Source of the DNA: Patescibacteria group bacterium
Lineage (GTDB): Bacteria; Patescibacteriota; Doudnabacteria; UBA920
Assembly: GCA_036726225.1 (NCBI GenBank)
Contig: DAIMCS010000002.1
Coordinates: 123,743 to 187,742, forward strand
Direction of reading: 5' to 3'
DNA length: 64,000 nucleotides
How positions within the stretch are numbered: position 1 is the stretch's first letter; each line of letters opens with the position of its first letter. This document shows, in pieces, positions 234-10,051 of this stretch. The position numbers and the translations under genes were made by a program. Under the pieces are notes generated by a model, which did no database searches, was not told where the DNA came from, and was given only the letters and a program-made list of their open reading frames with translations.

Positions 234-3200
234 ATGAACAAAATATTACAAGTGTTAAAACCTCAAGTTAGTTTACCAATTGCCCTGGCCATTTTAGTTG
301 GCTTAAGCGGCGTTTTTGTAATGTCGCCAAGGGCCTCCAGAATTGTAAAAGCCGAAAATTGTAACAATGCCCCTTCTGTAGCGACTTTAAACTTTTACCC
401 GGTTACCTGGGGAAACGTTGCGGGTGTTAACTGTTTGGATTTTGCTCCTATATCTATAAGAAACGTAAACAATCCTAATTACGCCCCGAGCGTTTCTGCC
501 CAGCCCGGAGAAGAAATGTATGTAAGTATTTACGTACACAATGGCGCCAGACAAGATGGCGACCCAAACCAAACCACAGCCCAAAATGTAAACGGGAGCA
601 TTTCGCTTTCCGGCAATACCATTTCCACAAGTTTTGCAGGTTCTAATACCAACACCAAAACTGGTGATGTCACTGTAGATATGCCTTCCGGTGCGACTTT
701 GGAAATTATTCCGGGTACAGAGGAATTTTTTGACTATCAATTTAGACCCATTTCCAAAAGTGTCAATTTAACTACTACCGGCGGGAGTTTTAATTTAGGT
801 GATATGCTCGCCTGTTTTGAATATTCCATTCAGCTTCGTTTTAAAGTAAAAGTTGTCGGGGCGGCTGCAGGCACAGGCAATATTGACGCGCAGACAAAAG
901 ACCAAAACTGCCCGGCCGGCAATTACAACGGCATTGTAAGCTGGAATGTTAGCGGCGGCGTTACCCAATCTGCCGTTTATGTCGATGATTTAAATGACAA
1001 CTTAGGCCCGCAATATTTTAGCGGTGAGCTTTGGGCTGAAAACAAAGCAATCTCTTTAATTCCAAACCATACTTTTGTTTTTACTCTCTATTCTGTTCAA
1101 AACGGAGTTGAAACTAAAATCTCTGAGGATTCCACCGGCGTTGTACCTGCGCTTAATTGCGGCGAGGATGCCACCGGAAATATTGATGTAGTCGTGCAGA
1201 GTCAAAACTGCCCGGCCGGCAATTACAACGGCATTGTAAGCTGGAATGTTAGCGGCGGCGTTACCCAATCTGCCGTTTATGTCGATGATTTAAATGACAA
1301 CTTAGGCCCGCAATATTTTAGCGGTGAGCTTTGGGCTGAAAACAAAGCAATCTCTTTAATTCCAAACCATACTTTTGTTTTTACTCTCTATTCTGTTCAA
1401 AACGGAGTTGAAACTAAAATCTCTGAGGATTCCACCGGCGTTGTACCTGCGCTTAATTGCGGCGAAGGCCCCACCACTTTAGTTTGTACGCCCCAAACGC
1501 AGACTGTAAATTCCGGAGCCCAGGCAAGTATTACTGCCAGCGGAGGCACTGCTCCATATTCATGGAAAGAAGGCGGCGTAGTAGTCAGCACACAGCCTAC
1601 CATTACCAGGACTTATACCAACCCTCTAACCTCTACTCAAACCAATACGCTTACTGTTTCAAGCTCAGACGGTCAAACTAAAACTTGTATTATATATGTA
1701 AATGGAGTTAGCGCTCCGCAAAGCGCCAGTATTGTTATAACTAAAGATGTCAGAAATATTACCCAAAACCAGTCTACTTTTGTGGATTCTACATCTGCCA
1801 AACAAAACGATACTTTAGAATACCGCATTGTGGTATCGGCAGGCAGCTCTGTGGCTTTAAACAACGTTGTTGTAACCGACACCTTTGCATCCGGCTTAAC
1901 TTATTTAAGCGGTTCTATTAGGGTAAACGGCCAGCCGCACAGCGCCGGGCTCTCCAGCGGGGGATTAACTTTCTCTTCTGTTAGCCAGGGTTCTCCGTTA
2001 ACTATTACTTACCAGGCCACAGTTAACGCCTCCAGCGGCACTATTGTAAATACCGCTAAGGCCACTGCTTCTAATTCAATCAATTTTCCTAGCGATACTG
2101 CAACTGTAAACGTAACTACGAATCCGGTTTCAGTTAATTGTACTGCTAATCCGACCGTTATTAATATAAACGGTTCAACTACTTTTTCCGCCTCAGGCGG
2201 CAATGGTTCTTATTCTTGGACTGTAACCGGCGGCAGTGTAACCAATTCAACTCAACAAAGCTTTAACTCAACTTTCAACACTGCGGGCACTTTTATAGCC
2301 ACTGTCTCCAGCGGCGGCAATTCCGCCACCTGTAACGTTGTTGTAAACAGCAACCCTAACAATTTAGTTTGTTATGCTAACCCATCTGTAATAAGCTCCG
2401 GTCAAAGCGTGACTTTTACTGCCTCAGGCGGCAGCGGATCTTATACTTGGCATGACAACGGCAACACTTATTTCGGCAGCTCTTACACACCTAACCCAAA
2501 TTACATTAACAACTCTACAGGGTCTATTACCCGCACCGTAACTGTAAACAGCGGCGGCCAAACCGTGCAATGCAGCGTTACTATAAACGGTATTAGCAAC
2601 CCGGGCCAGGCCATTTTGAACATTTCCAAAATGGTCAGGAATACAAACGGCGGCGCTTATCAAAATAGCGTGACCGTAAATACTAATGACACTGTCCAGT
2701 TTGAAATTGTTGTAACCAACAACGGCAGCCAGACAGCAAACAATGTCCGCGTAACTGACAACCTAACTAACGGGTTAAGCTTAGTGCCGGGCAGCGTAAC
2801 TGTTGACGGTTCATACGCTTCTGATTCCACTATCTATTCAGGAATGTATTTAGGCAACTTAGTCCCCGGCCAACAAAAACGAATTAATTTTCAGGCCAGA
2901 ATTAATTCCACCGGTTCTTCCAGCATCCAAAATGTTGCCGTAGCCAACTCCGACAATGCGGGCAGCGTACAAGCCAGCGCCTGGGTTTTTGTAAGCCAGG
3001 TTTCTGGAGGTAATGTAAACTTAAATTACAGCAAGCGCGCTTTCAACGAAACTAGAAATGCCGATGCTACCACTGTTACTGCGCAAAGAGAAGACTTTAT
3101 TACTTATACTTTAACTGTCAACAACAGCGGCAATACACCTGCAAATAATTTCGTCATTACTGACGACCTAAGTCAGGTTTTGCAATATGCTGATATGGTG

Positions 3201-3512
3201 GACAATGGCGGGGGTAGTTTAAACGGCAGTGTTATAAATTATCCGGGTATAACTGTTCCGGCCGGCGGTAGCGTATCGCGCAGCTTTAAAGTGAGAGTCA
3301 AGTTCTCGCTTGCCAGCAACCTTAGCTACACTATGACTAACACTTACGGCAATACCGTAACTGTCAGAATTAACACTCCGCAGGTTTTAGGCAACTTTGT
3401 TGCTCCTAAGACCGGTGCGGAAACTGCGGCTTTCAGTTTTGCAGGCATATTTACCGGCGCTGCAGCGCTTATTAGAAAAAGAAAGTATTTAATGAAGCTT
3501 ATCTTTACTTAA
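234..3512 (+). CDS. Large secreted cell-surface protein with DUF11-type 'conserved repeat domain' modules and Ig-like repeats; C-terminal sortase-like sorting signal
   Basis: N-terminal signal peptide (KPQVSLPIALAILVGLSGVFVMSP). Repeated modules of type VVTDTFASGLTYLSGS / VTDNLTNGLSLVPGSVTV typical of DUF11. The C-terminus is VAPKTGAE + hydrophobic stretch + RKRK, resembling an LPXTG-type cell-wall sorting signal. A terminator follows. Confidence 0.8.
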   Translation: MNKILQVLKPQVSLPIALAILVGLSGVFVMSPRASRIVKAENCNNAPSVATLNFYPVTWGNVAGVNCLDFAPISIRNVNNPNYAPSVSAQPGEEMYVSIYVHNGARQDGDPNQTTAQNVNGSISLSGNTISTSFAGSNTNTKTGDVTVDMPSGATLEIIPGTEEFFDYQFRPISKSVNLTTTGGSFNLGDMLACFEYSIQLRFKVKVVGAAAGTGNIDAQTKDQNCPAGNYNGIVSWNVSGGVTQSAVYVDDLNDNLGPQYFSGELWAENKAISLIPNHTFVFTLYSVQNGVETKISEDSTGVVPALNCGEDATGNIDVVVQSQNCPAGNYNGIVSWNVSGGVTQSAVYVDDLNDNLGPQYFSGELWAENKAISLIPNHTFVFTLYSVQNGVETKISEDSTGVVPALNCGEGPTTLVCTPQTQTVNSGAQASITASGGTAPYSWKEGGVVVSTQPTITRTYTNPLTSTQTNTLTVSSSDGQTKTCIIYVNGVSAPQSASIVITKDVRNITQNQSTFVDSTSAKQNDTLEYRIVVSAGSSVALNNVVVTDTFASGLTYLSGSIRVNGQPHSAGLSSGGLTFSSVSQGSPLTITYQATVNASSGTIVNTAKATASNSINFPSDTATVNVTTNPVSVNCTANPTVININGSTTFSASGGNGSYSWTVTGGSVTNSTQQSFNSTFNTAGTFIATVSSGGNSATCNVVVNSNPNNLVCYANPSVISSGQSVTFTASGGSGSYTWHDNGNTYFGSSYTPNPNYINNSTGSITRTVTVNSGGQTVQCSVTINGISNPGQAILNISKMVRNTNGGAYQNSVTVNTNDTVQFEIVVTNNGSQTANNVRVTDNLTNGLSLVPGSVTVDGSYASDSTIYSGMYLGNLVPGQQKRINFQARINSTGSSSIQNVAVANSDNAGSVQASAWVFVSQVSGGNVNLNYSKRAFNETRNADATTVTAQREDFITYTLTVNNSGNTPANNFVITDDLSQVLQYADMVDNGGGSLNGSVINYPGITVPAGGSVSRSFKVRVKFSLASNLSYTMTNTYGNTVTVRINTPQVLGNFVAPKTGAETAAFSFAGIFTGAAALIRKRKYLMKLIFT
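903..1465 (+). repeat. Perfect tandem duplication (2 x 300 bp period, 263 bp identical) inside the adhesin gene, in frame
   Basis: Positions 903-1165 are identical base-for-base to 1203-1465 (checked line by line). They encode NCPAGNYNGIVSWNVSGGVTQSAVYVDDLNDNLGPQYF...VVPALNCGE twice. Confidence 0.95.
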
Positions 3513-3566: not shown

Positions 3567-4086
3567 TTGCGCAATTTCGGGGAAGTGCTATTATAAAAGT
3601 AAATCGGGCTTAAAATGCCCTACCAAACAGAGGTGGAAATGAAGGTAGCTCCGTACGGCCGAGAAAGAAATGACCGGAAAAAAGTTTTGTTGCTGAGTTT
3701 ATTGGTAACTTTTTGCCTACTGTTTACGGCCTGGCAACTTGCGCAAACTCGCGTATACAGAGAAAGACCAGGGGAGCAATTGCAACCACTGCCTTCCCCG
3801 CTGACGGTTCAATATGTTTGCGGGCAAAAAGGAGTTGTGTGCGTATGGGGGTAGCCCACTTAATCAAAAGGGGGGCCGTCGGTACAAACCTTCCGCCCCT
3901 TCCTCATCTTAACAAAACAAAAACCAACAGCTAGAAAGCTGTTTTTATTTTTACCAGCCAACCAATGACTAACCAATATCTTTTAGACCTAATTCATGAA
4001 GCAAACAACCGCGGCGGCGGTATGGTTTTAAATTTGGACGGACAGCCCCAAGTTGTCGTTTTGACTTTGGATCGGTATAATCAAAT

Positions 4087-5077
4087 TATGAATAAGGAAT
4101 CAATAAAAAATAAAGAATTAAAAGTGCTGGTCACCGGCGGAGCGGGGTATATTGGCGGGCATTTGGTGAAAGAATTGACAGAAGCAGGTTATCAGGTGGT
4201 GGTTTTAGATAATTTATCCAGCGGCAAAAGAGAAAATATTGACCCCAGGGCTGTTTTTATAGAAGGGGATTTGGCCGACACAAATTTGCTTAAAGATATT
4301 TTTGCGGCCAATAAATTTGACGCAGTTTTCCATATGGCTGCGAGCGTGGAAGTGGAAGAATCGGTCAAAGAGCCTCAAAAATATTTTGACAACAATGTCA
4401 GCAATACCAACAAGCTTTTAAACGCAATGGCAGAAGCCGGGTGTAAAAAGATTATTTATTCCTCCACAGCCGCGGTTTACGGCGAAAGCCAAAACCCCAT
4501 AACCGAAACTTCACCGCTGCACCCTTCCAGCCCTTATGGCGCAAGCAAACTTTTGGGCGAGCGGGCCATAAAATATTTTTGCGAAAATTTGGGTTTTTCC
4601 GCCGTTGTATTCCGTTATTTTAATGCCTGCGGTTTTAACCCAAAAGCTAAAATTTTGCCTACCCACCAGTCGCATTTAATTTACAATGTTATGCAAGTTG
4701 CTTTGGGGCGAAAATCTGCCCTGCAGGTTTTTGGCAACAGTTACAACACCCTGGACGGCACGGGGATTCGGGATTATGTGCATATTTTGGATATTGTCCA
4801 TCCTCATATTCTGGCTTTAAATAAGCTGGACGGAAATAAATTCGAAATTATAAATATTGGTACCGGCAAAGGCAGTAGTGTTGCACAAGTAATTAATACC
4901 GCGTCAGAAGTTTTAAACAAAATTATTCCCATGGAGATTGTGGGGAAAAGAGCAGGGGACTCTGCTATTACCGTAGCCGACAACGCTAAGCTTCGGAAAG
5001 ATTTAGGTTATGAACTCAAATATAGTGATTTAGAGAATATAATTAGGACTAGTTGGGAAGGCATGAAGAACATATAG
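4087..5077 (+). CDS. galE: UDP-glucose 4-epimerase (NAD-dependent epimerase/dehydratase); the ORF is open upstream to 3965 (alternative start)
   Basis: Rossmann motif VLVTGGAGYIGGH, YSSTAAVYG, and catalytic SPYGASK (YxxxK). A TATAAT at 4074-4079 lies 7 nt before the ATG at 4087. Confidence 0.85.
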
Positions 5078-5096
5078 ATTAGAAACAAATTCACTT

Positions 5097-5124
5097 AAAA
5101 CCCGTCTATAAGTAGGCGGGTTTT
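5097..5124 (+). terminator. Terminator after galE, followed by an extended -10 promoter (TGtTATAAT 5125-5133)
   Basis: aaaacccgtctataagtaggcgggtttt hairpin. Confidence 0.6.
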
Positions 5125-5208
5125 GTGTTATAATTTATCTGGGTTCGCGGAAAACGTGCGGAATTTAACGCCCAAAGTACGCGGAAACTAGATAATTAAC
5201 ACATTAAA

Positions 5209-5928
5209 ATGAACAAACTGTCAGTTGTTATCCCGGCTTACAACGAGGAGCATCGTATTGCTCAAACGCTTGCGTCAGTAAGCGAGTATTTAAAAAAACA
5301 GCCTTACGATTACGAAATTTTGGTAGTCAACGACGGTTCTAAAGACTCAACAGCAAAAGCCGTATTAAGCCTTGAGTCACAAATCCCGAATTTAAGGTTA
5401 ATTGATAACCGGGAAAACCACGGCAAAGGCTGGGTAACAAAACAGGGTATGCTTGCGGCAACCGGGGATGTCAGGTTGTTTATGGACGCTGACAATTCCA
5501 CTAAGGTTGATGAAGTAAGCAAAATGTTGCCGTTTTTTTCGCAAGGGAATGACATAGTTATTGGCTCCCGCAGAATTAAAGGCTCGGTCATTGCCATCCA
5601 CCAGCCATGGTTTAGGGATTTTTTAGGCGGCGTGTTCCGGTTTATTGTGCATACGTTGGTTCCGCTTAATGTAACGGATTCGCAGTGCGGTTTTAAGACT
5701 TTTTCGGGCAAAGCCGCGCAAACCGTTTTTAGCAGACAAACTGTTTTTCGCTGGGCGTTTGACGTTGAAATTTTAGCAATTGCCCGCAGGCATAAATTAA
5801 AAATAGCAGAAGTGCCCATAACCTGGGTCAATGACGCAGAAAGCCACGTAAAATTTTCAGGGGAAGTGAATATGCTTTTGGAAATTTTTAAAACCAGGTT
5901 AAATTTATGGGCAGGAAAGTATAAATGA
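5209..5928 (+). CDS. Family 2 glycosyltransferase (dolichyl/polyprenyl-phosphate sugar synthase-like)
   Basis: VVIPAYNEE...VVNDGSKD...DADNS motifs (GT-A DXD). Confidence 0.85.
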   Translation: MNKLSVVIPAYNEEHRIAQTLASVSEYLKKQPYDYEILVVNDGSKDSTAKAVLSLESQIPNLRLIDNRENHGKGWVTKQGMLAATGDVRLFMDADNSTKVDEVSKMLPFFSQGNDIVIGSRRIKGSVIAIHQPWFRDFLGGVFRFIVHTLVPLNVTDSQCGFKTFSGKAAQTVFSRQTVFRWAFDVEILAIARRHKLKIAEVPITWVNDAESHVKFSGEVNMLLEIFKTRLNLWAGKYK

Positions 5929-7799
5929 GAATAACGCTTTCAAAATTTAGTAAATTAAAAAAAACGATTGCCATTTTTATGGTACTCATTTTTGTTTTTA
6001 TTCCCGAATTTTTGCCCACCAAAGCGGCTTTAGCCGGACAGGAAGCCGGGGGAACTTATATTATCAAACTTAAAGACACTAAAGATTACAGCCGGCTGCT
6101 TTTGGTTTCGGACTCAATTAAAAGGCGCTTTATCCAAAGTAAAAACATCCAATTTCAAAATATCTACACTTTTAATTCCAACTTAAGCCTTGCGGGTTTA
6201 AAAAATTTTTTAGCCGGTACGTATGAATACATTGAGCCCCAAAAAGTTTTACAGGTTTCTGAAGTTTTTGTAAATGACCCGGGTTTTACCCTCCAGGAGC
6301 AAAACGTCGATAAGCAGTGGGGTCTGGTTAAGGCCGGCTTTTCCCAAGCCTGGGCAAAAACCGTGGGCAGCGATGCAAATGTTGTTGCAATTATAGACAC
6401 AGGCATAGACGGGACCCACGAAGATTTACAAACTACAAATTTTGTATCCGGTTTTAATTTTATTTCCAACCAACCGATTGCGGCCGGACCAAACAATAAT
6501 TCGGACGACAACGGCCACGGCACTTTGGTTGCCGGCGTCCTGGGCGCGGCAACCAATAACGGCATGGGAGTTGCGGGAACTAACTGGGAAATTTCCCTAA
6601 TGGCCCTTAAAGCTTTGGATAAAGAGGGTAAAGGCGATGTTTCTGGCGTGGCTGAGGCAATTGTCTGGGCAACCGACCACGGCGCCCAGTTTGTAAATTT
6701 GAGCTTAGGCGGCATAGGTTTTGGCCACGACACGACTTTAGCCAACTCTATTAATTACGCCTTTAATAAAAACGTACTTATTGTCGCTGCCGCCGGTAAT
6801 GACACGGCAACAACGGGCAGTAACCTGGACCAGACGCCTGTTTTTCCGGTTTGTGACGACAATAATTTTAATATGATAATCGGCGTGGCGGCAACGGACC
6901 ATAATGATTTAAAACCCGCCTTCTCTAATTACGGTAAAAATTGCATAGATGTAACCGCACCCGGCAAAAGAATTTTATCTACAATTAATTTCGACCCGCT
7001 ATCCCAAAAGCCTTCGCCAAATTCTTATGCTTACGCTTCGGGAACTTCTTTGGCCGTGCCTTTTGTTGTAGGACAGGCCGCGCTTATAAAAGCCCTGTAC
7101 CCGCAAGCCACCAACATACAAATCCGCGACCGGATAATCGGCACGGCAGACACTATAGATAATTTAAACCTTATCCAGTGCGCAGGGGGTTCTTGTAGGG
7201 GGCTGGTCGGCGCGGGCAGGATTAATGTGTTTAGAAGTTTGCAAACAGAAATCCCTCTAGATTTTATTGAATGGGATATTGTGAAGGTCAACGATTTAAG
7301 CGGGGTGGTTTACCAAATTGTTGGCGGCCAAAAGAGGCTCATCTCCTCCTTTGTTTATAACCAGCGTTTTGCCAATTCCGAGTTTAAGACCGCCAATTTC
7401 GACCAGCTTGCCAACTTTCCCGAAGGCCCGTATGTAACGCCTCAAGATGGTACTTTAGTTAAATATGATACCAGCCCGACTGTTTACATAATGGACAAAG
7501 GGCAAAAGTTGCCCATAACCGCGCAGGTGTTTTTTCAAAGGAAACTTAGCTTTGCTGACGTTCGCACTTTAAGCGTTTCTGAACTCGACTCCTGGGCAAA
7601 AGGGAATTTTTACCCGCCGGCGGAAGGCACGCTGCTGAAAGCCGCAAAAAGCAAAACCGTCTATTGGGTGGTGGGTCAGGTACTACACCCTATAAATAAT
7701 ACATTCTATGCCGACAAGGGGCTAAAGGTTTTTCCTCTCATAACTTTTTCTGACGCGGATATTGCGAGTTTCCCCAAAGGCGAAGCTTATATTAGATAG
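5925..7799 (+). CDS. Secreted subtilisin-like serine protease (peptidase S8) with C-terminal ~55-aa repeat modules
   Basis: Signal/TM at N-terminus. Catalytic triad motifs AIIDTGID (Asp), HGTLVAG (His) and GTSLAVPFV (Ser). Three C-terminal repeats of the type DGTLVK..TVY.V..GQK.PI. Confidence 0.9.
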   Translation: MRITLSKFSKLKKTIAIFMVLIFVFIPEFLPTKAALAGQEAGGTYIIKLKDTKDYSRLLLVSDSIKRRFIQSKNIQFQNIYTFNSNLSLAGLKNFLAGTYEYIEPQKVLQVSEVFVNDPGFTLQEQNVDKQWGLVKAGFSQAWAKTVGSDANVVAIIDTGIDGTHEDLQTTNFVSGFNFISNQPIAAGPNNNSDDNGHGTLVAGVLGAATNNGMGVAGTNWEISLMALKALDKEGKGDVSGVAEAIVWATDHGAQFVNLSLGGIGFGHDTTLANSINYAFNKNVLIVAAAGNDTATTGSNLDQTPVFPVCDDNNFNMIIGVAATDHNDLKPAFSNYGKNCIDVTAPGKRILSTINFDPLSQKPSPNSYAYASGTSLAVPFVVGQAALIKALYPQATNIQIRDRIIGTADTIDNLNLIQCAGGSCRGLVGAGRINVFRSLQTEIPLDFIEWDIVKVNDLSGVVYQIVGGQKRLISSFVYNQRFANSEFKTANFDQLANFPEGPYVTPQDGTLVKYDTSPTVYIMDKGQKLPITAQVFFQRKLSFADVRTLSVSELDSWAKGNFYPPAEGTLLKAAKSKTVYWVVGQVLHPINNTFYADKGLKVFPLITFSDADIASFPKGEAYIR

Positions 7800-7842
7800 G
7801 AGTTTTAAAATAGGAGGTACAAAAAGCATTAAGAAAAAAAAT

Positions 7843-9699
7843 ATGCTCAAAAGAAAAATTTTAAAATTTATAAGCGCCGTAATATTATTCAGCTTCCCGC
7901 TGGCCGCGTTGGCTATGCCGGTTGACCCAAATTTTAACCCGGCCAAACTCATTGACGACAAAGTTTTTTCCGACATTCAAACTTTTGGCGGTCCGGAAGG
8001 CGTGCAGAAATTTTTGGAAAGTAAAAATTCGGTTTTGGCAAACACCTCCGCGGATTTTTTGGTTAAGCTCAAAGAGCCGCAGGCTACCCAACTAAAAGAA
8101 GGCCTGGAAGACCCGCAGCCAAATTTAGGCAGGCTTAGGACAGCTGCGGAGCTTATTTGGGACGCCTCCAGGCAAAGCGGGCTTAACCCCCAGGTACTCC
8201 TGGTGACTTTAAACAAAGAGCAGGGGTTAATTACTTCTGCCGGGGATTTTTCCCAAAGCCAGCTGCAAAAAGCTTTAGACAGATCTATGGGTTTTGATTG
8301 TCCGGACGGCGGAGGCTGCGGTAGTTTGTTTCCGGGTTTTTATTATCAATTATTTGGGAATTTTGACTCCGAAGGCAACCGTTATTTAGGCGCGGCCAAA
8401 TCTTTAATGAAATCTTTTACCACAGACGGCGGGCGGGGACCGATTATTGACGGGCGTACCGCAAAGGTAGGCGAGACAATAGTCTTGGGCAACACTTTAG
8501 GCGGCTATGAAAATATTTTGCCTTCGCAGTCGGTGTGGCTGACCAATAATGCAACCGCCGCGCTTTACCGGTATACTCCGCATGTTTTTAACGGCAATTA
8601 CAATTTTTGGAAATTTTTCCAGGCGTGGTTTAAATATCCCAACGGCACGCTGCTTAAAATGGCGAGCTCCGGGGAAACATACATTATCCAAAACGGACTT
8701 AAAGCTTTTGTCCCGCAATTCGTGGCAGCTGCCAGAGGGCTTGATTTAAACAGCACCGTTATAATTTCGCCTACGGAATACGAAAGTTATGTAACAGACA
8801 AGCCGTTGGGGCCGGAAAATAACACCATTGTGCAGCTGCCGGGCCAAAACGAGAAATACGTATTTATAGACAACGTCAGGCACTTGGCGTCAGATTTGGT
8901 AATTAAGCAAAGAGGTTTGGATCCTAAAAAAGTTTTGAGCATTTTGCCGGACGAAGCCGCAATTTTTGAAGCCGGCAGTGTTTTGCCTCCCAAAGACGGC
9001 ACAGTTATCCGCGGCACAACTAACCAGGCAGTATTTTTGGTTAAAGACGGCAAAATTAAAATGTTCAGCGCTTACACATTTGCCCAAAATAAAATTACCA
9101 AAAAAGATATTATAACTGTTCCGGATTCCGAAATTGGCACTTATTCCCAAAGCGGTTTTGTAGCACCGCTCGACGGCAGCCTGGTTAAATCGGCAAACGA
9201 TAGCACAGTTTATTTAGTCCAAAGCTCACTTAAGCAGCCGCTGCTCGGCGAGATTTTCAAGAACCGCGGCTTAAGCTTTAAAAAAGTGGCAATAATTTCA
9301 TCTGACGAGTTAAATGCTCTGCCTATGGGCGGGTTGGCTACGCCTAAAGAGCTTACCTACTTTGCTGCCGATTCAAAGACCGGGCCTTTGTATATTTTTA
9401 AAGAAGGTTCAGTGCACAGCATCTCCAGTTTTGTTGCCAAACAACGCGGCATTACCCCGGATTATATATTTAGCACCAGCGCAATAAATTTTTGGATTGT
9501 GGGAATTCCCATCCCGCCTAAAGACAACACCATTGTAAAAGGCGATACTGACAATACAGTCTATCTTGTTTTAAAAGGCCAGTTAAGGCCTTTAACCTAC
9601 CAAGCTTTCACCAACCGAAAAATTACGTCCAAGAAAATTGTGAGTTTGCCACAGGCCGAAGTTGACGCTTACGCCAAAGGGGAGATAATCACCAAGTAG
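7843..9699 (+). CDS. Secreted hypothetical protein with six C-terminal ~55-aa repeats of the same family as the S8 protease tail (ORF open from 7762)
   Basis: Signal peptide MLKRKILKFISAVILFSFPLAALA. Repeats DGTVIRGTTNQAVFLVKDGKIKMFS / DGSLVKSANDSTVYLVQSSLKQPL / DNTIVKGDTDNTVYLVLKGQLRPL. Confidence 0.75.
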   Translation: MLKRKILKFISAVILFSFPLAALAMPVDPNFNPAKLIDDKVFSDIQTFGGPEGVQKFLESKNSVLANTSADFLVKLKEPQATQLKEGLEDPQPNLGRLRTAAELIWDASRQSGLNPQVLLVTLNKEQGLITSAGDFSQSQLQKALDRSMGFDCPDGGGCGSLFPGFYYQLFGNFDSEGNRYLGAAKSLMKSFTTDGGRGPIIDGRTAKVGETIVLGNTLGGYENILPSQSVWLTNNATAALYRYTPHVFNGNYNFWKFFQAWFKYPNGTLLKMASSGETYIIQNGLKAFVPQFVAAARGLDLNSTVIISPTEYESYVTDKPLGPENNTIVQLPGQNEKYVFIDNVRHLASDLVIKQRGLDPKKVLSILPDEAAIFEAGSVLPPKDGTVIRGTTNQAVFLVKDGKIKMFSAYTFAQNKITKKDIITVPDSEIGTYSQSGFVAPLDGSLVKSANDSTVYLVQSSLKQPLLGEIFKNRGLSFKKVAIISSDELNALPMGGLATPKELTYFAADSKTGPLYIFKEGSVHSISSFVAKQRGITPDYIFSTSAINFWIVGIPIPPKDNTIVKGDTDNTVYLVLKGQLRPLTYQAFTNRKITSKKIVSLPQAEVDAYAKGEIITK

Positions 9700-9711
9700 C
9701 CGCAAATGCAA

Positions 9712-9740
9712 AAAGCCTTGCTATAACCAAGGCTTTTTTG
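9712..9740 (+). terminator. Rho-independent terminator
   Basis: aaagccttgctataaccaaggcttttttg. Confidence 0.7.
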
Positions 9741-9772: not shown

Positions 9773-10051
9773 ATGATTATCGAAGTTGCGTTATTCGGGT
9801 TCCGCAATGACGTTGATGCTGCAAGGGCCGCTCTTTTGGGGCTGATCCGTGAAAAACAGCCTTACTGGAAGATGGAACACAAAAGGCGGAAAGACGGAAC
9901 TAGCGGCTGGACAGAAGAAAACCCCTGCGTGCACTGGATTATTACTATTACAGAGGACTTGACTGTAGGGGAAGTCTTGAGGCAGATTGACGCTTTAAAT
10001 TTTGGTTTCGTTCTTGGCACCGATTGCCGCGCGTGCCAGAATAAAATCTAG
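9773..10051 (+). CDS. Small hypothetical protein (92 aa), GC-richer than its flanks, strong SD
   Basis: GGGGAGG RBS 6 nt upstream of the ATG. Followed by a GC hairpin plus T-run (10050-10078). Confidence 0.5.
   Translation: MIIEVALFGFRNDVDAARAALLGLIREKQPYWKMEHKRRKDGTSGWTEENPCVHWIITITEDLTVGEVLRQIDALNFGFVLGTDCRACQNKI

What the first reader, a model, noticed from the sequence alone, without database searches (positions are those of the whole stretch)
5925..9699. Shared ~55-aa repeat module (nine copies) on the tails of an S8 protease and the adjacent secreted protein
The pattern DG(T/S)L(V/I)K....TVY.V..GQK.P(I/L)....F...G..F..V..VS..EL recurs three times in the protease and six times in the neighbour. 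I do not recognise it as SLH, CWB2, LysM or SH3b. It is a plausible cell-envelope anchoring or ligand-binding repeat specific to this lineage. The two genes probably form a functional pair.
Basis: seen in the sequence. Interest (0 to 1): 0.55.

Follow-up and report, generated by a model that had tools for sequence, protein, structure and literature searches.

The report
EccB-type wall-targeting repeats on two hydrolases
Two neighbouring secreted enzymes of a Patescibacteria genome, a subtilisin-like protease and a lysozyme-like glycosidase, carry three and six copies of a 59-residue mini-domain that is not lineage-specific: it belongs to a large, mostly unannotated family related to the repeats of the type VII secretion protein EccB and shaped like phage cell-wall-binding domains, so it most likely tethers both enzymes to the cell wall.

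Summary
There are nine copies of a 59-aa repeat, three at the C-terminus of the S8 protease (5925-7799) and six at the C-terminus of the next gene (true start 7843, end 9699). Profiles built from one protein find the other at E 2e-28 and 1e-34, and nothing else in the window matches.

The repeat is not SLH, CWB2, LysM or SH3b, and the window's copies match no Pfam family. It is also not lineage-specific. An exhaustive profile search finds 2353 protein clusters with 2-16 copies. In a sample of 61, they are fused mainly to peptidoglycan hydrolase domains (SpoIID 16, Amidase_2 15, plus glucosaminidase, CHAP, M23) and to S8 proteases (9).

AlphaFold models (pLDDT 87 and 90) give each repeat a β-β-β-α-β-α fold. 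The best PDB matches are EccB1/3/5 of type VII secretion, then the phage wall-binding domains LysIME-EF1 CBD, PlyCB and Lys170 CBD. The family consensus passes Pfam's EccB threshold on EccB repeat 2.

Best reading: a shared multivalent wall-targeting module. Binding itself is inferred, not shown.

The parts
5209..5928 (+). GT2 glycosyltransferase gene, first gene of the putative three-gene unit. Its stop codon (TGA 5926-5928) overlaps the protease start codon (ATG 5925-5927).
   Evidence: Pfam Glycos_transf_2 E=3e-31. ATGA overlap read. The same GT2-S8 order is seen in L001, L003, L004 and L005.
5925..7799 (+). Protein 1: secreted S8 (subtilisin-like) serine protease, 624 aa. It has an N-terminal signal-like segment (aa 1-37), a probable propeptide, the catalytic domain and three C-terminal repeats.
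   Evidence: Pfam Peptidase_S8 E=1.5e-46. Catalytic motifs D158 (IIDTGID), H198 (GHGT) and S375 (SGTS) are present. An exact copy is on public contigs (P0273). The signal peptide and propeptide are inferred from the sequence only.
6378..7151 (+). S8 catalytic domain of protein 1 (aa 152-409).
   Evidence: The best NCBIfam match is mycosin TIGR03921 at 172 bits, below its cutoff of 278.75, so this is not a mycosin.
7260..7436 (+). Protein 1 repeat 1 (aa 446-504), the most divergent copy.
   Evidence: Predicted β-β-β-α-β-α fold.
7437..7613 (+). Protein 1 repeat 2 (aa 505-563).
   Evidence: i-E 1e-16 against an HMM built only from protein 2. Model.
7614..7796 (+). Protein 1 repeat 3 (aa 564-624).
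   Evidence: i-E 4e-8 against an HMM built only from protein 2. Model.
7843..9699 (+). Protein 2: secreted 618-aa protein with a signal-like N-terminus (MLKRKILKFISAVILFSFPLAALA), a lysozyme-like (GH73-like) domain and six C-terminal repeats.
   Evidence: Start codon read. More than 850 full-length homologs at 55-73% identity, all named hypothetical. AF2 model with pLDDT 87.
7930..8631 (+). N-terminal lysozyme-like domain of protein 2. The candidate catalytic Glu is E126 (GAG at 8218-8220) in the invariant motif NKEQGL.
8632..8808 (+). Protein 2 repeat 1.
8809..8985 (+). Protein 2 repeat 2.
8986..9162 (+). Protein 2 repeat 3.
9163..9339 (+). Protein 2 repeat 4.
9340..9513 (+). Protein 2 repeat 5 (58 aa; lacks the DG(T/S)L motif).
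9514..9696 (+). Protein 2 repeat 6.
5096..5125 (+). Terminator-like hairpin upstream of the GT2 gene, a possible boundary of the transcription unit.
   Evidence: consensus scan only.
9710..9738 (+). Terminator-like hairpin immediately after protein 2. None was found between GT2, protein 1 and protein 2.
   Evidence: consensus scan only.

Best explanation
Each 59-aa unit is a small independent domain with a four-stranded β-sheet and two helices in the order β-β-β-α-β-α. It is of the same kind as the four repeat domains of the type VII secretion protein EccB, and it shares its fold with the phage endolysin wall-binding domains PlyCB, LysIME-EF1 CBD and Lys170 CBD. In these two proteins the units are strung in tandem (three and six copies) behind a catalytic domain. 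I propose they act as a multivalent targeting module that holds the secreted S8 protease and the GH73-like glycosidase on the cell wall, bound either to peptidoglycan or to a wall-linked glycopolymer. Because both enzymes carry the same module, they would go to the same place. They appear to be made from one GT2-S8-glycosidase transcription unit inside a surface-polysaccharide cluster. The glycosidase is most likely a housekeeping autolysin for wall remodelling or daughter-cell separation, like LytB. The protease is most likely a wall-associated protease that processes or turns over wall proteins, possibly including its partner. Shown here: the repeat, its fold, its relation to EccB, the fusion partners, and the conservation of the gene pair. 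Inferred: wall binding, the ligand, and the division of labour between the two enzymes.
For: 1. Repeat reality. Cross-validated HMMs give E=2e-28 and 1e-34.
2. Fold. AF2 models have pLDDT 87.2 (protein 2) and 89.8 with pTM 0.78 (protein 1 tail), and all nine units are β-β-β-α-β-α. EccB repeats are described as 'a 4 stranded β sheet and two α helices' (PMC4769845). [quoted passage not shown]
4. Sequence link. A profile of 112 diverse repeats finds EccB1 (E=0.0033) and EccB3 (E=0.0082) across a whole repeat. Family members P0191 and P0126 hit Pfam EccB PF05108 at profile positions about 183-249, which is EccB repeat 2, with E=9e-17 and 4e-10. The family consensus scores 31.3 bits there against a cutoff of 27.
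5. Fusion partners. Of 61 diverse repeat-bearing proteins, 16 have SpoIID, 15 Amidase_2, 2 Glucosaminidase, 1 CHAP, 1 M23 and 9 Peptidase_S8. This is the partner set expected of a wall-binding module.
6. Protein 2's own catalytic domain is lysozyme-like or GH73-like.
7. Charge. The repeat tails are basic (pI 8.0 and 9.2) and the catalytic parts acidic (5.1 and 5.3).
8. Gene pair. The S8 gene lies directly upstream on the same strand in 58 of 70 genomes. The GT2 and S8 genes overlap by ATGA. No terminator-like site lies inside the unit.
9. Stability. Copy number is fixed at 3 in 119 of 120 protease homologs and at 6 in 115 of 120 protein 2 homologs, and copies are position-specific. Identity across genomes is 55-73%. 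This points to a conserved housekeeping role.
10. Ligand precedent. PlyCB binds the polyrhamnose backbone of a wall polysaccharide (bioRxiv 10.1101/2021.03.19.436156).
Confidence: 0.6

Rival explanations
1. The repeats are a structural stalk or a protein-protein interaction scaffold, as in EccB. They would form a rigid rod that spaces the catalytic domains away from the membrane or S-layer, or that assembles the two enzymes into a complex, without binding any wall polymer.
For: In EccB the repeats pack against each other and against a core domain to form an elongated, continuous hydrophobic structure, and a structural role has been proposed (PMC4769845). The three-repeat tail model has pTM 0.78, which suggests defined packing between repeats. 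Some family members are giant multi-domain surface proteins with PKD, Ig-like or PA14 domains.
Against: The dominant fusion partners are peptidoglycan hydrolase domains (35 domain hits among the 61 sampled proteins), which typically carry wall-binding modules rather than spacers. The nearest non-EccB structures are experimentally studied wall-binding domains. The tails are basic. A spacer would not be expected to keep position-specific sequence conservation in every copy, although this argument is weak.
Confidence: 0.2
2. The pair is a host-directed weapon of an episymbiotic Patescibacterium. The repeats would recognise the wall of the host bacterium, and the protease and glycosidase would breach it for attachment or nutrient uptake.
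For: The contigs belong to Patescibacteria (Doudnabacteria and relatives), many of which are thought to live as epibionts (background stated in the abstract of PMC12102498). The fold relatives PlyCB and the Lys170 and LysIME-EF1 CBDs act from outside on foreign walls (PMC7098653).
Against: Both proteins are highly conserved (55-73% identity over their full length, with fixed copy number) across hundreds of genomes. The genes sit in a biosynthetic envelope cluster next to a flippase, Wzy and glycosyltransferases. Both features fit housekeeping genes better than fast-evolving, host-specific weapons. The same repeat occurs on SpoIID/LytB proteins of free-living Actinomycetota.
Confidence: 0.1
3. 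The genes are remnants or parts of a type VII-like secretion apparatus, combining a mycosin-like protease with an EccB-like protein.
For: The best NCBIfam hit of the protease is mycosin, and the repeats are of EccB type.
Against: The mycosin score of 172 is far below the cutoff of 278.75. Neither protein has the EccB architecture, since there is no N-terminal membrane anchor followed by a core β-sheet domain flanked by two repeats on each side. The conserved neighbours are an epimerase, GT2, flippase, cytidylyltransferase, GT4 and Wzy, not EccC, EccD or WXG100 genes. The remainder of the window, beyond about 13.4 kb, was not scanned for T7SS genes.
Confidence: 0.03
4. The repeats are blades of a β-propeller or another classical repeat (NHL/'Pizza', hemopexin, Kelch), or one of SLH, CWB2, LysM or SH3b.
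For: Profile searches of PDB sequences list designed 'Pizza' propellers at E down to 5e-8. Hemopexin folds appear low in the Foldseek list.
Against: No single 'Pizza' stretch passes threshold (i-E above 400). The score is a sum of short matches of about 20 residues to the 'tVYv.d.g' strand. The period is 59 rather than 42. The models contain two helices per unit. The hemopexin hits have E>=0.014 and probability <=0.14. No Pfam hit to any classical wall-binding repeat was found.
Confidence: 0.02

Closest known systems
Repeat domains R1-R4 of EccB (type VII/ESX secretion core component; Pfam PF05108; PDB 4KK7, 3X3M, 5CYU, 6SGY, 7NPS)
   Same: Same size (about 52-59 aa) and same elements, a four-stranded sheet plus two helices. 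EccB gives the top structural matches for both models. There is family-level sequence similarity to R1 and to R2. Both are extracytoplasmic. A proline-rich segment follows each unit.
   Different: EccB has exactly four repeats wrapped around a central β-sheet core, behind an N-terminal transmembrane helix, and it is encoded in ESX loci. Here there are 3-16 uninterrupted tandem copies at the C-terminus of secreted enzymes, with no core domain, no membrane anchor and no T7SS neighbours. The window's own copies do not reach any Pfam threshold.
PlyCB (wall-binding subunit of streptococcal phage endolysin PlyC, PDB 4F87) and the Lys170 / LysIME-EF1 enterococcal phage endolysin CBDs (PDB 7D55, 6IST)
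   Different: The phage domains reach multivalency by non-covalent ring assembly of single domains (PMC7098653), whereas this family uses tandem repeats within one chain. No sequence similarity was detected. The ligand is known only for PlyCB, which binds polyrhamnose (bioRxiv 10.1101/2021.03.19.436156).
LytB of Streptococcus pneumoniae (GH73 endo-β-N-acetylglucosaminidase with choline-binding repeats; PDB 7PJ3)
   Different: By my recollection LytB's repeats are choline-binding repeats and lie N-terminal to the catalytic domain; this was not checked here. Protein 2 has no Pfam Glucosaminidase hit and no sequence-level PDB hit.
Wall-associated subtilases such as Bacillus subtilis WprA and lactococcal PrtP (from my own knowledge, not tested here)
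   Same: These are S8 proteases retained at the Gram-positive cell wall, where they process or degrade wall proteins and autolysins.
   Different: They are retained by a different mechanism (for PrtP, an LPXTG anchor) and they carry no EccB-type repeats.
Pfam DUF7454 (PF24253)
   Same: The profile is 59 positions long. A few protein 2 orthologs give partial hits of 23.6-27.3 bits spanning the junction of repeats 2 and 3.
   Different: Only profile positions 17-50 match. All but one of these hits lie below the 27-bit cutoff. There is no hit from the window proteins or from the family consensus. It is not demonstrably the same domain.

Membership tests
EccB-type repeat domain (repeats within Pfam PF05108 T7SS_ESX1_EccB) | Domain of about 55 aa with a four-stranded β-sheet and two α-helices (PMC4769845). 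| tested here: met
   All nine units are predicted as β-β-β-α-β-α with pLDDT of about 90.
EccB-type repeat domain (repeats within Pfam PF05108 T7SS_ESX1_EccB) | Closest solved structures are EccB proteins. | tested here: met
EccB-type repeat domain (repeats within Pfam PF05108 T7SS_ESX1_EccB) | Sequence match to the EccB profile or to EccB sequences. | tested here: inconclusive
   The window's own repeats and tails give no PF05108 hit, with single repeats and tails scanned at E<=10 and the two full proteins at E<=1. At family level, the 112-repeat profile finds EccB1 at E=0.0033 and EccB3 at E=0.0082. The family consensus scores 31.3 bits against a cutoff of 27. Members P0191 and P0126 hit at E=9e-17 and 4e-10.
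EccB protein (T7SS core component) | N-terminal transmembrane helix, a central β-sheet core flanked by 2+2 repeats, and an ESX/T7SS gene neighbourhood. | tested here: not met
   The architecture is signal peptide, then enzyme, then tandem repeats. The neighbours are glycopolymer biosynthesis genes.
PlyCB / Lys170-type phage cell-wall-binding domain | Shared fold. | tested here: inconclusive
PlyCB / Lys170-type phage cell-wall-binding domain | Binding to a cell-wall polymer, and ring oligomerisation. | not testable with these tools
   This needs biochemistry. Only indirect support is available: fusion partners and basic pI.
Classical wall-binding repeats (CW_binding_2, SLH, LysM, SH3b, choline-binding, GW) | Match to the corresponding Pfam model. 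| tested here: not met
   No such hit for the full proteins, the tails, the nine single repeats or the 112 family repeats.
Peptidase S8 (subtilase), protein 1 | Pfam PF00082 match above threshold and an Asp/His/Ser triad. | tested here: met
   159.5 bits against a cutoff of 21.8. D158, H198 and S375 lie in their canonical motifs.
Mycosin (TIGR03921), protein 1 | Score above the curated cutoff. | tested here: not met
   172.4 bits against a cutoff of 278.75.
GH73 glucosaminidase / lysozyme-like superfamily, protein 2 N-terminal domain | Lysozyme-like fold. | tested here: met
GH73 glucosaminidase / lysozyme-like superfamily, protein 2 N-terminal domain | Sequence match (Pfam PF01832), and a catalytic Glu in the equivalent position. 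| tested here: inconclusive
   There is no Pfam or PDB sequence hit. An invariant Glu (E126, in NKEQGL) lies within a helix at CDS residues 116-127, two residues before its C-terminal end. Residue-level superposition on LytB was not available.
Pfam DUF7454 (PF24253) | Score above the gathering cutoff of 27 bits. | tested here: not met
   The window proteins give no hit. Orthologs score 23.6-27.3 bits, partial matches only.

The most novel reading that the evidence does not exclude
The EccB-type repeat is a large and so far unnamed family of bacterial cell-wall (or wall-glycopolymer) binding modules. The four repeats of EccB and the phage PlyCB/Lys170-type wall-binding domains would be specialised offshoots of it. 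If so, the fusion pattern seen here would be the first comparative evidence that EccB anchors type VII secretion machines to the wall. The conserved GT2-S8-glycosidase operon of Doudnabacteria-like Patescibacteria would then be a dedicated envelope-remodelling device whose repeats read the glycopolymer made by the surrounding cluster.
Probability: 0.3. Interest if true: 0.65.

Novelty: new variant of a known kind. Interest (0 to 1): 0.42.

Why it matters
First, it annotates two conserved genes of Patescibacteria. One of them has more than 850 homologs that are all named 'hypothetical'. One is now a wall-targeted protease and the other a wall-targeted lysozyme-like glycosidase.

Second, it defines a repeat family of at least 2353 protein clusters that has no dedicated Pfam model. 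Family members reach Pfam only through the whole-protein EccB model, and the window's copies do not reach it at all. A dedicated model would improve annotation of secreted hydrolases in Patescibacteria, Actinomycetota and other groups.

Third, the repeated fusion of this domain to SpoIID, amidase, CHAP, M23 and glucosaminidase domains is independent support for an idea raised in 2016 and never tested: that EccB repeats bind the cell wall. It also offers small soluble proteins on which to test that idea.

Fourth, such modules are candidate targeting domains for engineered lysins.

Tried and rejected
- The word-indexed homolog search with the 9-repeat profile found only 3 short fragments. The exhaustive search was needed.
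- The 9-repeat profile against PDB sequences gave only spurious summed 'Pizza' propeller hits. With the broader 112-repeat profile these persist, but no single stretch passes threshold, while EccB1 and EccB3 appear with a full-length stretch.
- The whole protein 2 profile against PDB sequences gave nothing.
- The bridge protein P0191, searched as a single sequence against the PDB, gave only CHAP hits and no EccB.
- DUF7454 was a lead from the precomputed annotations. It was rejected as the identity of the repeat because the family consensus and the window tails do not hit it.
- A T7SS reading was rejected on architecture and neighbourhood.
- DNA-level tandem duplication or an assembly artefact was rejected.
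- Literature searches for 'DUF7454' and for 'EccB-like' plus peptidoglycan returned no papers. A search for Patescibacteria wall-binding repeats returned nothing relevant.
- hhalign against an EccB repeat alignment was not run, because no EccB sequences could be obtained.
Full report
**1. Observation**

ORF listing shows two co-directional genes. Protein 1 spans 5925-7799 (624 aa). Pfam places a Peptidase_S8 domain at aa 152-409 with E=1.5e-46. The catalytic motifs D158, H198 and S375 are present.

Protein 2 was listed from TTG 7762. Reading the DNA together with the N-termini of 53 homologs (consensus MxKxK) puts its start at ATG 7843. That gives 618 aa, ending at 9699. Both proteins begin with a positively charged stretch followed by a hydrophobic stretch, typical of a signal peptide. 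This is inferred from the sequence only.

The motif DG(T/S)L(V/I)K...VY...G.K recurs at a strict 59-aa period, three times in protein 1 and six times in protein 2. Copies are only 10-42% identical to each other.

The repeat is nonetheless highly significant:
- An HMM built from protein 2's copies alone finds protein 1 at E=2.3e-28.
- An HMM built from protein 1's copies alone finds protein 2 at E=9.7e-35.
- No other six-frame ORF of the window scores better than E=0.03.
- Tandem Repeats Finder sees no 177-nt DNA repeat.
- Each copy scores highest against the same-position copy of an ortholog.

The arrays are therefore ancient and position-specific, not recent duplications. Three corrections apply: the unit is 59 aa, protein 2 starts at 7843, and the genes do not overlap.

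**2. Known repeat families**

The two proteins were scanned against Pfam at E<=1. Their isolated tails and the nine single repeats were scanned at E<=10. No SLH, CW_binding_2, LysM, SH3b, choline-binding or other repeat family was hit. NCBIfam adds nothing for the repeats.

**3. Distribution**

An exhaustive HMMER search with the nine-repeat profile against 1.84 billion cluster representatives found many proteins:
- 2353 at E<=1e-3
- 701 at E<=1e-10
- 62 at E<=1e-30

These carry 2-16 copies and reach 3254 aa in length. Sixty-one diverse members were scanned against Pfam. The co-occurring domains were:

| Domain | Proteins (of 61) |
|---|---|
| SpoIID | 16 |
| Amidase_2 | 15 |
| Peptidase_S8 | 9 |
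| Glucosaminidase | 2 |
| T7SS_ESX1_EccB | 2 |
| CHAP | 1 |
| Peptidase_M23 | 1 |

PKD, Ig-like, PA14 and CAP domains also appeared in a few proteins each.

Named members include SpoIID/LytB proteins of Actinomycetota and proteins of Candidatus Wirthbacteria. The repeat is therefore not lineage-specific. Its partners are overwhelmingly peptidoglycan hydrolases.

**4. Fold**

An AlphaFold2 model of protein 2, built with 53 homologs, has mean pLDDT 87.2. A model of the protein 1 tail, built with 24 homolog tails, has pLDDT 89.8 and pTM 0.78. All nine units are β-β-β-α-β-α.

Structure searches gave consistent results:
- **Foldseek against the PDB:** the top 11 hits are only EccB1, EccB3 and EccB5 (E 2.3e-7 to 3.1e-4). 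Global TM-scores are low because the relative orientation of successive domains differs.

**5. Sequence link to EccB**

Four results connect the family to EccB at the sequence level:
- A profile of 112 diverse repeats (alignment A4) finds EccB1 (E=0.0033) and EccB3 (E=0.0082) with one stretch covering profile positions 5-57 (EccB1) and 2-57 (EccB3) of 58.
- Family member P0191 (CHAP plus repeats) hits Pfam PF05108 at profile positions 183-247 with E=8.8e-17. EccB1 repeat 2 spans residues 185-241 (PMC4769845).
- P0126 does likewise, with E=4e-10.
- The family consensus scores 31.3 bits there, against a cutoff of 27.

The window's own copies are too divergent to reach Pfam. I conclude that the unit is an EccB-type repeat. 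The proteins are not EccB: they have no membrane anchor, no core domain and no ESX neighbours.

**6. The rest of protein 2**

The Glu of the motif NKEQGL is invariant in all 54 sequences. It is E126 in CDS numbering, codon GAG 8218-8220, and sits near the C-terminal end of a helix. It is a plausible catalytic acid, but this is an inference.

**7. Gene context and pairing**

Neighbouring genes were annotated with Pfam:
- Upstream are a DUF11/PKD surface protein, an NAD-dependent epimerase and a GT2 glycosyltransferase.
- Downstream are a Wzx-type flippase, a cytidylyltransferase and a GT4 glycosyltransferase.

The GT2 stop overlaps the protease start (ATGA). Protein 2 follows 43 nt after the protease stop. 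Terminator-like hairpins occur only before GT2 (5096-5125) and directly after protein 2 (9710-9738). This suggests a single GT2-S8-glycosidase transcription unit.

The order epimerase, GT2, S8, protein 2, flippase, cytidylyltransferase, GT4 (followed by Wzy where the locus reaches that far: L001 and L005) is kept in four of five contigs inspected. Among species-representative genomes, 291 encode a protein 2 relative. Of the 70 best loci with enough upstream DNA, 58 have the S8 gene immediately upstream on the same strand.

The 12 loci without it include five named Gammaproteobacteria and two Uhrbacteria. One of them (L056) is the contig of P0119, an 8-repeat protein of 732 aa.

Copy number is stable. 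It is 3 in 119 of 120 protease homologs. It is 6 in 115 of 120 protein 2 homologs, and 8 in the other five.

**8. Mechanism**

The best-supported reading is that the tandem units form a multivalent wall-targeting module shared by both enzymes.

Support:
- the fold relatives
- the fusion partners
- protein 2's own lysozyme-like domain
- basic tails (pI 8.0 and 9.2) against acidic catalytic parts (5.1 and 5.3)
- the envelope-biogenesis neighbourhood

The phage relatives achieve multivalency by assembling single domains into rings. These proteins achieve it by covalent repetition.

The ligand could be peptidoglycan or a wall-linked polysaccharide. PlyCB binds polyrhamnose (bioRxiv 10.1101/2021.03.19.436156), and the locus lies inside a glycopolymer cluster. 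High conservation argues for a housekeeping autolysin and wall-protease pair rather than a host-directed weapon. Binding, ligand and the relation between the two enzymes are all inferred.

The rival readings are scored in the report sections: a structural stalk or interaction scaffold as in EccB, a host-directed lysin pair, a T7SS remnant, and a β-propeller or classical repeat.

**9. Novelty**

The fold and its presence in EccB are known. Wall binding by EccB remains a hypothesis (PMC4769845, PMC6986878). I found no Pfam model and no paper describing this tandem-repeat family on hydrolases.

I rate it a new variant of a known kind, with moderate interest. It annotates a large 'hypothetical' family. 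It also supplies comparative support and convenient test proteins for the EccB wall-anchoring idea.

Noticed in passing
window 234-3512 (+): A 1092-aa surface protein with DUF11/CLIPPER and PKD domains. It contains two almost identical internal segments of about 110 aa ('GNID...QNCPAGNYNGIVSWNVSGG...ALNCGE'). Its C-terminus resembles a sortase sorting signal: 'APKTGAE', then a hydrophobic stretch, then 'RKRK'. Orthologous giant proteins sit in the same position in L001 and L004.
   Followed up: partly
window 3965-5077 (+): The NAD-dependent epimerase has an N-terminal extension of about 50 aa before the Pfam Epimerase domain starts at aa 54. Orthologs of 384-399 aa suggest the extension is conserved. 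Its function is unknown.
   Followed up: no
window 5925-5928 and 7796-7824: The GT2 stop and the protease start overlap (ATGA). The spacer between the protease and protein 2 contains a 14-nt direct repeat, ATAGGAGGTACAAA, in about 2.1 imperfect copies (80% matches), carrying a GGAGG (7813-7817) that lies 25 nt before the ATG at 7843.
   Followed up: partly
L002 6001-8199; proteins P0107, P0112, P0114, P0119, P0122: A subgroup of protein 2 relatives has eight repeats instead of six (727-733 aa). In the two loci inspected (L002 and L056, both P0119) it stands alone, without the S8, GT2 and flippase neighbours.
   Followed up: partly
L003 7143-8540 (-) and L004 7024-8463 (-); window 9773-10051 (+): In two related genomes an SLT-like gene of about 470 aa lies on the opposite strand between protein 2 and the flippase. 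At that position the window has only a 92-aa ORF with no Pfam hit.
   Followed up: no
proteins P0126, P0138, P0157, P0182, P0396: The same repeat occurs in giant proteins (1423 aa with 14-16 copies; 3254 aa). It also occurs with CAP, M23+LGFP and PA14 domains, so its partners go beyond peptidoglycan hydrolases.
   Followed up: partly
loci L007-L085: Many contigs carrying close protein 2 relatives are titled 'uncultured Candidatus Saccharibacteria', 'Gammaproteobacteria', 'Acutalibacteraceae' or 'Binatia'. Others with the same gene order are titled Doudnabacteria or Patescibacteria. The former look like automatic mislabels.
   Followed up: no
orthologs P0006, P0009, P0117: These give weak partial hits (23.6-27.3 bits) to Pfam DUF7454. 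Its profile is also 59 positions long, but it aligns out of register, across a repeat junction. The relation to the repeat is unresolved, since the family consensus does not hit it.
   Followed up: partly
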